From positions 301 to 64,300 of the forward strand of contig CAYNOU010000005.1 of assembly GCA_964398885.1 (NCBI GenBank): 64,000 nucleotides of DNA. The letters run 5' to 3'. The notes beneath the pieces are model-generated. The model was not told the origin of the DNA, made no database searches, and saw only the letters and a list, made by a program, of their open reading frames with translations. Of this stretch, positions 1,277 through 3,252 are shown in pieces; the first letter of the stretch is position 1; each line of letters starts with the position of its first letter. The stretch comes from an uncultured Candidatus Cloacimonadota bacterium (GTDB lineage: Bacteria; Cloacimonadota; Cloacimonadia; JGIOTU-2). Both the position numbers and the translations under genes were made by a program.

Positions 1277-3252
1277 AATTAACAATTCCAGAACGGGAAA
1301 TAATGCAACCTGGTCATCTTGCCTGTCAGGGTTGTGGCGGTTCACTGGCGATGCGATATGCCCTAAAGGTTTTTGGCAAGGATACGATTTTAACAATTCC
1401 AGCTTGCTGCTGGTCTGTTATTGATGGCCCTTTTCCGTATACTGCTGTTGGAGTTCCGCTTTTTCATACAGCATTTGAAACAGCTGCTATTATGGCATCT
1501 GGCATAAAAGCAGGTTTGGATATTCAAGGTAAAACATCAACTAATGTAATTGCATGGGCTGGTGATGGCGGTACTTTTGATATCGGAATTGCATCTCTTT
1601 CTGGTGCTGCAGAAAGAAATGATGATATTACATATATTTGCTATGATAATGAAGCATATATGAATTGCTTATCTCTTGATTCTCTTATTATGACTAAGAA
1701 TGGTCTTAAAAAAATAACTGAAGTAAAATTAGGAGAAGAAGTTTATGCATATAATCAAAAAACAGGAGAGCTTACACTAAAGAAATGCATTGGCATTTTT
1801 GACAATGGTGTAAAGAAGGTTTTTGAGGTTAACACATTACATCATACTATAAAAGCTACTTCAAATCACCCATTCTTAGTGTTGAAAAGAAATGGACGTG
1901 GCAAAAAATCTTACTTTGTATGGAAAGAACTGAAAGATTTAATGGAAGATAATGAGATTGTGGTTCTCAAGAAACTCATGCCAGGAAAGGGTTTCAAGTT
2001 TAACCCAATAAAACTTTCTAAGAAAGGAGATTATAAAGTAAATAAGATAAATGAAATAGAAATTCCAGAAGCCAGTTCTGAAAATCTTATGGAATTATTA
2101 GGATTATATGTTGGAGATGGCTGGGTCAGACCTCAAAAAGCAGAAGTCGGATTTGCCCTTCCCAAAAATTCAAAAGGAAGTGAAAAATTAATCTCTCTTT
2201 ACAAGGAAGTATTTAATCAAAATTTAGTTCAAAAAGATGAATCTTATATCTATGTTTATTCTGTTAACTTAGCAAAATTCATTGATTCTCTCGGTTTTGA
2301 AAAAGGAGCAAAAAATAAAATTATTCCTGCTTGGGTTTTTACATTACCAGAGCATGAAAAAGAAGCTTTTGTTAGAGGATTGATGTTATCCGATGGTTAC
2401 AAATTTAAAAATAGCAACAGATATGTCTCTGCAAGTTATGATTTACTAAGAACCTTAAGATTATTATTGCAGACAATAGGATATCAGGTTGGAAAGATTC
2501 ATCAGCAGACCAAGAAAAAAGGAACTCTTTGTGTATATAGACAATTATTAGAAGATTCTACTTACGGTTATATTAGTTTTAGCAAAAAGAAAAAACCAAA
2601 TATTTCAAAATATCTTTCTCAATTAAAACAAAGAGATTTTTTAGCAGACAATGAGTATTTCAGCACTGAAAAGGTAACTTCAATAAAGTTTATTAAAGAA
2701 GAGCCAACCTTAGATTTAAGAGTTGAGGGAGAACATAATTTTATTGCTGATGGAATCGTTGTTCATAATACTGGAATTCAGCGAAGTTCTGCAACTCCAC
2801 ACGGTGCATGGACAACAACTACACCTGTTAAACATTATAAAAAAGGGCGCAAGAAAAATATTGTAGAAATAATGGCAGCTCATAGAGTTCCTTATACTGC
2901 TACTGCTTCTGTAGGTTATCCTGAGGATTTTATAAAGAAGCTAAAAAAAGCTAAAGAAACAAGAGGATTTAAGTTTTTACATGTTCTTGCTCCCTGTCCA
3001 ACTGGCTGGAAATCCGACCCAAAATATACTGTTAAACTAGCCAAACTTGCTGTGCAGACAGATGTTTTTCCTCTTTATGAAGTAGAAGATGGAATACATT
3101 ATAGACAAACAATTAAGGTTAAAGAAAGAAAGCTTGTAACCGAATATTTTAAATATCAAGGTAGATTCAAACATCTTAAAGAGGAAGAAGTTGAGTTTAT
3201 TCAGAAAAAAATTGATGAGGATTATAAAATACTACTAAAGAAATTTCAGTAG
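1273..3252 (+). CDS. porB: PFOR beta (TPP-binding) subunit interrupted by an intein
   Basis: Extein motifs GDGGTFDIG and [14 protein letters not shown] are split by a 368-aa insert that begins with Cys and ends with His-Asn immediately before Thr. Confidence 0.85.
   Translation: [659 protein letters not shown]
1666..2769 (+). other. Intein with LAGLIDADG homing-endonuclease domain inside porB
   Basis: Hint blocks CLSLDSLI (A), TSNHPFLV (B) and IADGIVVHN (G) followed by +1 Thr; two LAGLIDADG motifs ([23 protein letters not shown]); the flanking extein sequence [10 protein letters not shown] is a motif that reads uninterrupted once the insert is removed (the uninterrupted motif is expected in PorB homologues). 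Confidence 0.8.

What the first reader, a model, noticed from the sequence alone, without database searches (positions are those of the whole stretch)
1666..2769. LAGLIDADG intein inserted in the TPP-binding (beta) subunit of pyruvate:ferredoxin oxidoreductase
PorB is interrupted precisely within the conserved [14 protein letters not shown] motif by a 368-aa element. The insert starts with Cys, ends with His-Asn, is followed by Thr, and carries Hint blocks plus two LAGLIDADG motifs. Insertion next to the TPP/active-site region fits the usual intein preference for conserved catalytic sites. Inteins in PFOR subunits are uncommon to my knowledge.
Basis: partly seen in the sequence, partly recalled or inferred. 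Interest (0 to 1): 0.6.

Follow-up and report, generated by a model that had tools for sequence, protein, structure and literature searches.

The report
Mobile intein splitting PorB/VorB enzyme
A self-splicing, self-propagating protein element (an intein with a homing endonuclease) sits exactly in the active-site loop of a key anaerobic enzyme subunit in a Cloacimonadota bacterium; it is a textbook intein, but in a host protein I could not find described, and it has clearly been hopping between very distant microbes, archaea included.

Summary
Window 1666-2769 is a 368-codon in-frame insert (Cys1 ... His-Asn | Thr+1) in the beta (TPP-binding) subunit of a four-subunit 2-oxoacid:ferredoxin oxidoreductase. 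Pfam, NCBIfam, PDB sequence search and a high-confidence AlphaFold model (pLDDT 92.7; best fold match the TliVMA intein, TM 0.73) all identify a class-1 Hint splicing domain enclosing a two-motif LAGLIDADG endonuclease. Removing the insert restores a gene colinear with an intein-free, syntenic orthologue from another Cloacimonadota genome (876 = 876 nt, 91% identical, exact junction). The residue before the insert aligns with Asn996 of D. africanus PFOR, a substrate-pocket residue.

The allele is not rare. At least 344 GTDB species in both Archaea and Bacteria carry a relative, always at YMN|TG where I checked, with a decay series from 372 down to 162 aa. Inteins are more alike than their hosts (89% of 2,775 pairs). 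dN/dS is 0.06-0.16 in both domains, and intein dS is about one third of extein dS, so homing has been recent.

Two caveats: the host may be Vor rather than Por, and splicing and cleavage are inferred, not shown. I found no paper describing this allele. Verdict: a new member of a known kind, of moderate interest.

The parts
1..131 (+). 3' end of the delta (2x[4Fe-4S] ferredoxin-like) subunit gene, cut by the window edge; its stop overlaps the porA start
   Evidence: The sequence ...[23 protein letters not shown] is visible. The full 101-aa gene on the parent contig L001 carries Fer4 Pfam hits.
128..1276 (+). Alpha subunit (PorA/VorA type), 382 aa
   Evidence: Pfam POR_N 241 bits and PFOR_II 106 bits. 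NCBIfam PorA_Arch 488 bits and VorA-type 474 bits, both below their equivalog cut-offs.
1273..1665 (+). N-extein of the beta subunit (131 codons). The ATG overlaps the porA stop (ATGA). It contains the TPP motif GDG(97-99)...N126 and ends with Asn131 (-1).
   Evidence: Pfam TPP_enzyme_C matches residues 63-132 and is then interrupted. The stretch is 93.9% identical to the first 131 aa of the intein-free orthologue L087.
1666..2769 (+). Intein, 368 codons: class-1 Hint splicing domain split by a LAGLIDADG homing-endonuclease domain
   Evidence: Pfam, NCBIfam, PDB sequence matches. AlphaFold pLDDT 92.7, pTM 0.89. Foldseek best hits are 7qsu/7qss TliVMA intein (TM 0.73-0.74), 2cw7 PI-PkoII, PI-SceI and PI-PfuI.
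1666..1980 (+). Hint N-terminal part (aa 1-105): block A Cys1 (1666-1668), allele-specific invariant Cys41 (1786-1788), block B Thr65-x-x-His68 (1858-1869)
   Evidence: C1, C41, T65, N67 and H68 are invariant in 41-42 full-length relatives. Matches DnaB and DnaX mini-inteins.
2071..2565 (+). LAGLIDADG endonuclease domain (aa ~136-300): motif 1 [13 protein letters not shown] (2086-2124, catalytic Asp151), motif 2 [11 protein letters not shown] (2368-2400, catalytic Asp243)
   Evidence: Pfam LAGLIDADG_3. alpha-beta-beta-alpha-beta-beta-alpha elements appear in the model. Fold match to I-DmoI. D151/G152 and D243/G244 are invariant in the 13-sequence alignment A1 and at least 90% conserved in the 42-sequence A2, which includes decayed copies. 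dN/dS is 0.155 (vs L007) and 0.088 (vs L090).
2656..2769 (+). Hint C-terminal part (aa 331-368): block F Asp350 and His357, block G His367-Asn368
   Evidence: T348, D350, L351, H357, N358, F359, H367 and N368 are invariant. NCBIfam intein_Cterm. Aligned to the NpuDnaB intein C-terminus.
2770..3252 (+). C-extein of the beta subunit (160 codons plus TAG), starting with the +1 nucleophile Thr (ACT 2770-2772) of the conserved TGIQRS motif
   Evidence: Gapless alignment to 9bt4_C and 5c4i_C across the junction. 91.2% identical to L087.
3374..3406 (.). GC-rich hairpin plus T-run between the convergent porB and comEC genes; probable bidirectional intrinsic terminator that ends the operon
   Evidence: RNA fold -21 kcal/mol, z = -5.3, with 0 of 200 shuffles folding as well. 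The consensus scanner did not report it.

Best explanation
This is a canonical class-1 intein that carries an intact LAGLIDADG homing endonuclease. It is inserted in the beta (TPP-binding) subunit gene of a PorB/VorB-type four-subunit 2-oxoacid:ferredoxin oxidoreductase of a Candidatus Cloacimonadota bacterium.

Inferred mechanism. The 659-aa precursor is translated as one chain. Cys1 makes the N-S acyl shift, assisted by block-B Thr65/His68. Thr+1 attacks the thioester. Asn368 cyclises, assisted by His367 and by block-F Asp350/His357. An O-N shift then joins ...AYMN to TGIQRS..., restoring the 291-aa subunit whose substrate pocket and TPP loop the intein had split.

The freed 368-aa protein would act as a site-specific endonuclease. 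It would cut intein-free porB alleles at the about 40-bp sequence that spans ...GAYAAYGARGCNTAYATGAAY|ACNGGNATHCARCG..., and recombinational repair would copy the intein in (homing).

Shown here: the anatomy, the fold, the conservation of all catalytic residues, the clean insertion relative to an empty orthologous site, purifying selection on both domains, and phylogenetic evidence of recent horizontal spread. Inferred, not shown: that splicing and DNA cleavage actually occur.
For: Identity of the element. Pfam and NCBIfam hits are above curated cut-offs. PDB sequence hits are to DnaB, VMA and PI-PkoII inteins. The AlphaFold model has pLDDT 92.7, and its fold matches HEN-containing inteins at TM 0.73-0.74, mini-inteins at TMt up to 0.82, and I-DmoI.

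Catalytic residues. C1, T65, H68, D350, H357, H367 and N368, plus Thr at +1, are invariant in 41-42 full-length relatives. The LAGLIDADG Asp151 and Asp243 are invariant in the 13 full-length sequences of A1 and are lost only in shortened copies.

Clean insertion. The syntenic Cloacimonadota locus L087 (porG-porD-porA-porB-comEC-dxr-cdsA-uppS) has a 291-codon porB. The window's exteins equal it in length (876 nt), are 91.3% identical, and match exactly at TATATGAAT|ACTGGAATT. The 30 closest extein homologues (77-93% identity) are all intein-free.

Active-site position. The -1 Asn aligns, without gaps, with SEQRES index 995 of 1b0p. I take this to be Asn996 in the literature numbering, an offset of +1 that I recalled rather than tested. 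Asn996 lines the pyruvate pocket and rotates on substrate binding (PMC5020499).

Mobility. Relatives are found in at least 344 GTDB species, and the 80 best loci come from both domains. All 80 examined loci keep one open frame through N-extein, intein and C-extein. The intein is more conserved than the extein in 89% of 2,775 pairs, and cross-domain pairs reach 81% intein identity at about 50% extein identity. Between the window and L007, dS is 0.35 in the intein against about 1.0 in the exteins. dN/dS is 0.06-0.16 in the Hint and HEN parts. Intein lengths form a decay series from 372 to 162 aa at the same site.
Against: There is no experimental or expression evidence, so splicing and endonuclease activity are inferred from sequence only. 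Thr at +1 is the less reactive of the accepted nucleophiles. Invariant catalytic residues do not guarantee efficient splicing in this extein context.

Host labels for several 'Methanosarcinales' and 'Planctomycetia' TPA MAGs are automatic and may be wrong, so the cross-domain claim rests mainly on the Woesearchaeota, Nanoarchaeota, Heimdallarchaeota and Bathyarchaeia records.

The endonuclease could have been inactivated very recently without leaving a trace in dN/dS.
Confidence: 0.9

Rival explanations
1. Domesticated or conditional intein. The element still splices, but splicing is gated by redox state (for example a Cys1-Cys41 disulfide that traps the precursor when oxygen is present). The oxygen-sensitive oxidoreductase would then mature only under reducing conditions. 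This would add to, rather than replace, the selfish-element reading.
For: Cys41 is 100% conserved in the PorB allele. The same HMM column is Val or Ile in 134 of 160 inteins from other hosts, and Cys there is almost confined to PorB-allele sequences. All hosts are anaerobes that use an O2-labile enzyme. From my own recollection, not checked here: redox-trapped inteins are known in MoaA, PolII and SufB.
Against: The position is normally a hydrophobic beta-strand residue, so Cys may be no more than a tolerated founder substitution. Close relatives do well without the intein, which argues against an essential regulatory role. The mini-intein decay series and the horizontal spread fit a selfish element.
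Confidence: 0.08
2. Dead intein or pseudogene. The insert no longer splices, and this porB copy is non-functional.
For: The neighbouring comEC carries an in-frame TGA in this contig, so some decay is present in this genome or assembly. Splicing has not been demonstrated.
Against: All splicing residues are intact and the 659-codon frame is open. dN/dS is 0.07-0.09 in the exteins and 0.09 in the intein against L007. The identical protein recurs on five contigs from several samples. All 80 genome loci are open through the whole gene.
Confidence: 0.03
3. A non-splicing insertion domain (or a bacterial intein-like, BIL, domain) that is retained in the mature enzyme.
For: One search lists sub-threshold matches to Pfam Hint families that are not intein-specific: PT-HINT at 21.0 bits (gathering cut-off 27.7) and Hint at 13.6 bits (cut-off 29.7).
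Against: The insert separates the substrate-pocket Asn from the next residue of a loop that is contiguous in every solved OFOR. The full class-1 residue set and a +1 nucleophile are present, and so is a homing endonuclease, which to my knowledge BIL domains lack. Close orthologues lack the insert.
Confidence: 0.01

Closest known systems
Archaeal VMA (V-type ATPase subunit A) inteins with LAGLIDADG endonuclease, e.g. TliVMA/PhoVMA (PDB 7qsu, 7qss, 7qst), and PI-PkoII (2cw7), PI-SceI (1vde), PI-PfuI (1dq3)
   Same: Same two-part architecture, a Hint horseshoe interrupted by a double-motif LAGLIDADG domain. Same class-1 residues. Whole-model superposition TM 0.73-0.74 with 7qsu/7qss. Sequence hits at E = 4e-8 to 1e-7.
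   Different: Only 13-20% sequence identity in the structural alignments. The host protein is different (a TPP enzyme, not an ATPase or polymerase). The +1 residue is Thr. The conserved Cys41 is specific to the PorB allele.
DnaB mini-inteins (Ssp DnaB 1mi8, Npu DnaB 4o1r)
   Same: These are the best sequence matches for the splicing domain: 31-32% identity over about 105 aligned columns to Ssp DnaB (1mi8, 6fre, 6frh_B). Blocks A, B, F and G align. The ...HNF(I/V)A-x-x-I(V/I)VHN C-terminus is shared with NpuDnaB.
   Different: They have no endonuclease domain and sit in a replicative helicase. The natural mini derivatives of the PorB intein (162-177 aa, e.g. P0094, P0102) are their functional analogues.
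Inteins in SufB, phage portal proteins, ClpP and subtilases (nearest non-PorB relatives in the 1.8-billion-protein library)
   Same: Full-length alignment over residues 1-368 with the same Hint+LAGLIDADG layout.
   Different: Only about 30-36% identity. There is a sharp gap between these and the PorB allele family (at least 54%), so the PorB intein is a discrete allele and not a recent jump from one of them.
Four-subunit pyruvate:ferredoxin oxidoreductase beta subunit (PDB 9bt4_C) and oxalate oxidoreductase beta (5c4i_C); VorB-type NCBIfam NF008818
   Same: The spliced extein aligns end to end (E = 2e-77 and 2e-61) with no gap at the splice junction. It has the TPP motif GDG...N and sits in the porG/D/A/B gene order.
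   Different: The host gene here is interrupted by the intein. Substrate (pyruvate or 2-oxoisovalerate) is not resolved: VorB-type 424 bits against PorB 386 bits.

Membership tests
Class-1 intein (Hint splicing domain) | Nucleophile (Cys/Ser) as first residue (block A) | tested here: met
   TGC at 1666-1668. Cys1 is invariant in 42 relatives and in 154 of 160 wider intein N-domains.
Class-1 intein (Hint splicing domain) | Block B T-x-x-H motif | tested here: met
   Thr65-Ser-Asn-His68 (nt 1858-1869). T65 and H68 are invariant.
Class-1 intein (Hint splicing domain) | Block F Asp/His and block G penultimate His plus terminal Asn | tested here: met
   D350, H357, H367 and N368 are invariant. NCBIfam intein_Cterm 25.4 bits, above the 15.6 cut-off.
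Class-1 intein (Hint splicing domain) | Cys/Ser/Thr as first C-extein residue (+1) | tested here: met
   Thr (ACT 2770-2772). HN|TG is present in all 104 relatives whose sequence covers the C-junction and in all 80 genome loci.
Class-1 intein (Hint splicing domain) | Hint fold | tested here: met
   Pfam Intein_splicing 65.2 bits, above the 35.8 cut-off. The model at pLDDT 92.7 matches mini-inteins at TMt 0.77-0.82 and the hedgehog Hint domain.
Class-1 intein (Hint splicing domain) | Removal restores an uninterrupted, conserved host protein; intein-free alleles exist | tested here: met
   Gapless alignment to 9bt4_C. The syntenic empty-site orthologue L087 is colinear, 876 = 876 nt.
Class-1 intein (Hint splicing domain) | Protein splicing actually occurs (ligated exteins plus free intein) | not testable with these tools
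   This needs expression with SDS-PAGE/MS, or metaproteomic detection of the junction peptide.
Class-3 intein (WCT triad, no N-terminal nucleophile) | Trp (block B), Cys (block F:4) and Thr (block G:5) triad, with no Cys1/Ser1 | tested here: not met
   Cys1 is present and the block-F residue is Asp350, not Cys. So this is not class 3. The block positions of the triad are from my own knowledge.
LAGLIDADG homing endonuclease (monomeric, two-motif) | Two LAGLIDADG helices, each ending in a catalytic acidic residue | tested here: met
   [11 protein letters not shown]151GW and FVRGLMLSD243GY. Pfam LAGLIDADG_3 37.7 bits, above the 22.5 cut-off. Both Asp are invariant in the 13 full-length copies of A1.
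LAGLIDADG homing endonuclease (monomeric, two-motif) | alpha-beta-beta-alpha-beta-beta-alpha pseudo-dimeric fold | tested here: met
   Helix and strand pattern over residues 139-283. Foldseek matches to I-DmoI (TMt about 0.6) and to the HEN domains of PI-PkoII and PI-SceI.
LAGLIDADG homing endonuclease (monomeric, two-motif) | Site-specific cleavage of the intein-less allele | not testable with these tools
   Indirect support only: dN/dS 0.09-0.16 in the HEN domain, intein dS one third of extein dS, and intein/extein incongruence.
2-oxoacid:ferredoxin oxidoreductase beta subunit, PorB/VorB type | TPP-binding domain with the GDG-X26-N motif and N-terminal Cys ligands | tested here: met
   Pfam TPP_enzyme_C, split by the insert. 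GDG at 97-99 and N126. NF008818 at 424 bits, above the 405 cut-off.
2-oxoacid:ferredoxin oxidoreductase beta subunit, PorB/VorB type | Operon with alpha, delta and gamma subunits | tested here: met
   porD and porA lie upstream in the window. porG (PF01558) lies upstream in the syntenic L087; the window's own contig ends before it.
Pyruvate synthase PorB specifically (NCBIfam NF008819 equivalog) | Score above the curated equivalog cut-off / pyruvate specificity | tested here: not met
   385.9 bits, below the 405 cut-off. Close orthologues are named VorB-type. Substrate is unresolved, so the element is not filed as PorB sensu stricto.

The most novel reading that the evidence does not exclude
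The PorB/VorB intein is more than a parasite. Its allele-specific, invariant Cys41 would form a reversible disulfide with Cys1, so that the precursor of an oxygen-labile ferredoxin oxidoreductase splices only under reducing conditions. That would be a post-translational redox switch on a central enzyme of anaerobic carbon metabolism, shared by hundreds of uncultivated archaea and bacteria through inter-domain homing.
Probability: 0.08. Interest if true: 0.65.

Novelty: new member of a known kind. Interest (0 to 1): 0.38.

Why it matters
Known inteins are concentrated in replication, repair and ATP-binding proteins (PMC4760082). An intein family in the TPP/substrate loop of a central anaerobic redox enzyme widens the host range. 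With three insertion sites inside one 35-residue loop (GDGG|, YV|CYDN, YMN|TG), that loop is an intein hot spot.

The allele is an unusually clean natural example of the homing cycle, because all of the following occur at one site: empty orthologous sites, full-length copies under purifying selection, partly decayed copies and mini-inteins. Near-identical inteins occur in hosts as far apart as Cloacimonadota and DPANN/Asgard archaea, which makes the allele a useful marker of DNA exchange in anoxic sediments.

There are two practical consequences. Many GenBank MAG records truncate this gene to 'LAGLIDADG family homing endonuclease' starting at Met -2, which hides a PFOR/VOR subunit from metabolic reconstructions. 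The natural 162-177-aa mini-inteins and a new LAGLIDADG specificity could also serve as protein- and genome-engineering parts.

Tried and rejected
(1) 'Split PorB' idea. Many database proteins of 537-541 aa start at 'MN|C...', which suggested a separately encoded N-extein. Rejected: in L005 and L006 the N-extein is open and in frame upstream, so this is a gene-calling artefact. The same holds for all 80 genome loci.

(2) Assembly chimera. Rejected: the identical 659-aa protein is found on five contigs from several samples.

(3) Other inteins in the window. An HMM built from the family finds only this one among the 109 stop-to-stop ORFs of at least 80 aa. Pfam on 10 large ORFs shows ordinary bacterial genes.

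(4) Literature. Eight full-text searches were run: intein with 'ferredoxin oxidoreductase', PorB, 'pyruvate synthase', 'thiamine pyrophosphate', DPANN or Cloacimon*, plus an intein-survey query and an Asn996 query. I also read the Novikova 2016 survey, the Anaeramoeba, Thiomargarita and Nanoarchaeota papers, and the S. tokodaii OFOR structure paper consulted for Asn996. None gave a description of a PFOR/VOR intein. The supplements of the 2016 survey are not held, and InBase is not available here, so prior listing cannot be excluded.

(5) The consensus terminator scan found nothing downstream of porB. Folding shows a strong hairpin plus T-run.

(6) The Cys1-Cys41 distance could not be obtained because model coordinates are not exposed. 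I used a column-frequency comparison instead.

(7) GC content is 30.2% in the intein, 36.6% in the exteins and 34.2% in the window. The difference is too small, and too confounded by the Lys-rich composition, to use as evidence of foreign origin.
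Full report
OBSERVATION.
The ORF at 1273..3252 (+) encodes 659 aa. Reading the DNA and translating it gives TGC (Cys) at 1666-1668, CAT-AAT (His-Asn) at 2764-2769 and ACT (Thr) at 2770-2772. The insert is 1,104 nt, or 368 codons, in frame and without stops, between ...YDNEAYMN and TGIQRS....

WHAT THE INSERT IS.
- Pfam: Intein_splicing scores 65.2 bits (gathering cut-off 35.8) with the match running from residue 8 to 368, that is, a Hint domain split by an inserted domain. LAGLIDADG_3 scores 37.7 bits (cut-off 22.5).
- NCBIfam: intein_Nterm and intein_Cterm are both above cut-off.
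- PDB sequence search: DnaB and DnaX mini-inteins for the two ends, and VMA inteins and PI-PkoII for the whole length.
- Structure: an AlphaFold model built on 42 homologues is very confident (pLDDT 92.7, pTM 0.89).
- Fold search: Foldseek against the PDB puts HEN-bearing inteins first (TliVMA 7qsu/7qss TM 0.73-0.74, PhoVMA, PI-PkoII, PI-SceI, PI-PfuI), then mini-inteins (TMt up to 0.82), hedgehog Hint, and I-DmoI for the central domain.

All class-1 catalytic residues are present and invariant across 41-42 full-length relatives: Cys1, Thr65-x-x-His68 (block B), Asp350 and His357 (block F), His367-Asn368 (block G) and Thr+1. The two LAGLIDADG acidic residues, Asp151 and Asp243, are invariant in the 13 full-length sequences of A1. 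They are lost only in copies that have begun to shrink, for example P0057 with D151N and G244R.

WHAT THE HOST IS.
The spliced extein (291 aa) aligns end to end, and without a gap at the junction, to the beta subunit of a solved four-subunit PFOR (9bt4_C, E = 2e-77) and to oxalate oxidoreductase beta. The upstream genes are the alpha subunit (128..1276; POR_N and PFOR_II) and the end of the ferredoxin-like delta subunit. The gamma subunit lies further upstream in the syntenic locus L087.

The NCBIfam VorB-type subfamily model is passed (424 > 405 bits), while the PorB equivalog is narrowly missed (386 < 405). NCBI names the closest orthologues '3-methyl-2-oxobutanoate dehydrogenase subunit beta'. 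The enzyme family is therefore certain, but the substrate (pyruvate or 2-oxoisovalerate) is not.

The TPP motif is GDG(97-99)-X26-N126, and the intein follows Asn131. In an ungapped alignment to D. africanus PFOR (1b0p), Asn131 falls on SEQRES index 995, in '...MDTEVYSN|TGGQ...'. I take this to be Asn996 in the literature numbering; the +1 offset is my recollection and was not tested. Asn996 lines the substrate pocket and rotates on pyruvate binding, and the equivalent position tunes substrate specificity in Sulfolobus OFOR (PMC5020499). The intein thus splits the active-site/TPP loop, which fits the usual intein preference and means the unspliced precursor is very unlikely to be active (inference).

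CLEAN INSERTION AND EMPTY SITES.
Searching with the spliced extein returns, as the 30 closest proteins (77-93% identity), only intein-free proteins of 290-293 aa, mostly labelled Candidatus Cloacimonadota or Cloacimonetes. One of them (P0268, locus L087, GCA_034722995.1) lies in the same gene order as the window: porD-porA-porB-comEC-...-dxr-cdsA-uppS.

At the DNA level the window's two extein segments together are exactly as long as the uninterrupted gene (876 nt) and 91.3% identical to it. The sequence around the insertion point is TATATGAAT|ACTGGAATTCAG in both, with no duplication or deletion. This is the expected footprint of homing. It also identifies the organism as a Cloacimonadota bacterium, in agreement with the best genome hit for the intein itself (L007, Ca. 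Cloacimonadota NIOZ-UU1, 93%) and with the FCB-type genes elsewhere in the window (TonB-dependent receptor, T9SS sorting domain).

DISTRIBUTION AND MOBILITY.
- The intein alone finds 218 protein clusters. In the 120 listed, every sequence that covers a junction has the same site, YMN|C...VVHN|TG.
- A scan of GTDB species representatives finds at least 344 genomes with a relative. The 80 best include Woesearchaeota, Nanoarchaeota, Aenigmatarchaeota, Micrarchaeota, Iainarchaeota, Heimdallarchaeota, Bathyarchaeia, ANME-1, Omnitrophota, Aerophobetes, Parcubacteria, Dependentiae and Clostridia-labelled MAGs.
- All 80 keep one open frame through both exteins.
- Intein length forms a series at the same site: 365-372 aa (full), 325-351, 270-302, 201-224, and 162-177 aa (clean mini-inteins such as P0094 and P0102). 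This is the classic endonuclease-decay trajectory.
- Inteins are more alike than their hosts. Relative to the window, intein identity is 58-79% while C-extein identity is 38-59%, and the rankings are decoupled.
- Over 2,775 locus pairs the intein is the more conserved part in 89%. Cross-domain pairs reach 81% intein identity at about 50% extein identity. The window's nearest inteins outside Cloacimonadota (70-79%) are all in archaeal-labelled genomes.
- Within Cloacimonadota, window and L007 differ by dS of about 1.0 in the exteins but only 0.35 in the intein. The window's exteins are closer to the empty allele (91% DNA identity) than to L007's (81-82%).
- dN/dS is 0.06 (Hint-N), 0.155 (HEN) and 0.06 (Hint-C) against L007. 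Against L090, dN/dS for the HEN domain is 0.088.

Together these results indicate an endonuclease that has been functional until recently, and repeated horizontal homing that includes transfer between Bacteria and Archaea. The caveat is that several TPA MAG taxonomic labels are automatic.

In the 1.8-billion-protein representative library the allele collapses to a few 50%-identity clusters. Identity then drops to about 30-36% for inteins in SufB, phage portal, ClpP and subtilase hosts. The PorB intein is therefore a discrete allele.

MECHANISM (inferred from the established class-1 pathway).
1. N-S acyl shift at Asn131-Cys1.
2. Trans-esterification by Thr+1.
3. Asn368 cyclisation.
4. O-N shift giving ...[10 protein letters not shown]....

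The released 43-kDa protein would then cut intein-less alleles at the conserved target, whose consensus over 81 junctions is GATAATGAAGCTTATATGAAT|ACAGGAATTCAGCGAAGCGGT. I put confidence that this is a genuine intein at about 0.97, that it splices at about 0.85, and that its endonuclease is currently active at about 0.6-0.7.

UNEXPLAINED.
Cys41 is invariant in the family, whereas the same HMM column is Val or Ile in 134 of 160 inteins from other hosts. A Cys1-Cys41 redox trap in an enzyme of strict anaerobes is an attractive but untested idea.

NOVELTY.
In kind, this is a textbook intein. I found no paper describing an intein in any PFOR/VOR/OFOR subunit in eight full-text searches and five papers read, including the 2016 prokaryotic intein survey. 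However, InBase and that survey's supplements were not available, and JGI's pipeline already auto-labels some copies as '...beta subunit/intein/homing endonuclease'. I therefore rate it a new member of a known kind. Its interest is moderate and rests on the host class, the breadth and recency of its spread, and the three-site hot spot in the TPP loop.

SIDE OBSERVATIONS.
- Many NCBI MAG annotations start this gene at Met -2 and call it a 'LAGLIDADG family homing endonuclease' or 'hypothetical protein', losing the N-extein.
- A Nanoarchaeota PorB (L005/L022) has a second intein at GDGG|. L025 has another at YV|CYDN, eight residues upstream of this site.
- The window's comEC carries an in-frame TGA where contig L002 has CGA.
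- A strong hairpin plus T-run at 3374-3406 ends the operon.

Noticed in passing
window 5510-5512 (minus strand); comEC ORFs 3413-5386 and 5510-5824: The comEC gene convergent with porB is split by an in-frame TGA. The near-identical contig L002 has CGA (Arg) at that codon and an intact 814-aa ComEC, as does L087. This is either a recent nonsense mutation or population variant, or a sequencing error.
   Followed up: partly
L005 126-3185 (= L022; Nanoarchaeota JAHIMK010000007.1): The PorB ORF of about 1,019 codons carries two inteins: a second, unrelated LAGLIDADG-type intein inserted at GDGG|C...N|SYDIG inside the GDG of the TPP motif, plus the YMN|TG intein.
   Followed up: partly
L025 1919-5611 ('uncultured Planctomycetia' TPA MAG CAYHAE010000023.1): A 1,231-codon PorB ORF has a third insertion site, ...MLYV|CLPPETE...FVISN|[15 protein letters not shown]..., only 8 residues upstream of the YMN|TG intein. 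These are two neighbouring inteins in one loop, so the PorB TPP loop has at least 3 intein sites.
   Followed up: partly
P0004-P0009, P0018-P0020, P0022, P0025, P0028-P0034 etc.; L005 1560, L006 4796: Systematic mis-annotation in GenBank MAGs: the gene is called from the Met two residues before the intein ('MNC...', 537-541 aa) and named 'LAGLIDADG family homing endonuclease' or 'hypothetical protein'. The in-frame N-extein of about 130 codons is left unannotated, which would hide a PFOR/VOR beta subunit from metabolic reconstructions.
   Followed up: yes
window 1786-1788 (intein Cys41): This Cys is invariant in the PorB intein family but is Val or Ile in about 84% of other intein families at the same HMM column. 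It may be a redox partner of Cys1 or merely a founder core residue.
   Followed up: partly
window 3374-3406: A 13-bp GC-rich hairpin followed by a T-run (-21 kcal/mol, z = -5.3) lies between the convergent porB and comEC genes and is probably a bidirectional terminator. The consensus terminator scan missed it.
   Followed up: yes
window 46368-48860 (+) and 52615-55686 (-): Two large ORFs (831 and 1,024 aa) have no Pfam match at E <= 1e-5. The second lies near a TonB-dependent receptor (58270-61338) and a protein with a T9SS sorting domain (49129-51423).
   Followed up: no
L087 6036-6419: In the empty-site Cloacimonadota orthologue a small PDDEXK_3 nuclease-family gene sits between porG and porD. 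The window's contig ends before this position, so its presence here is unknown.
   Followed up: no
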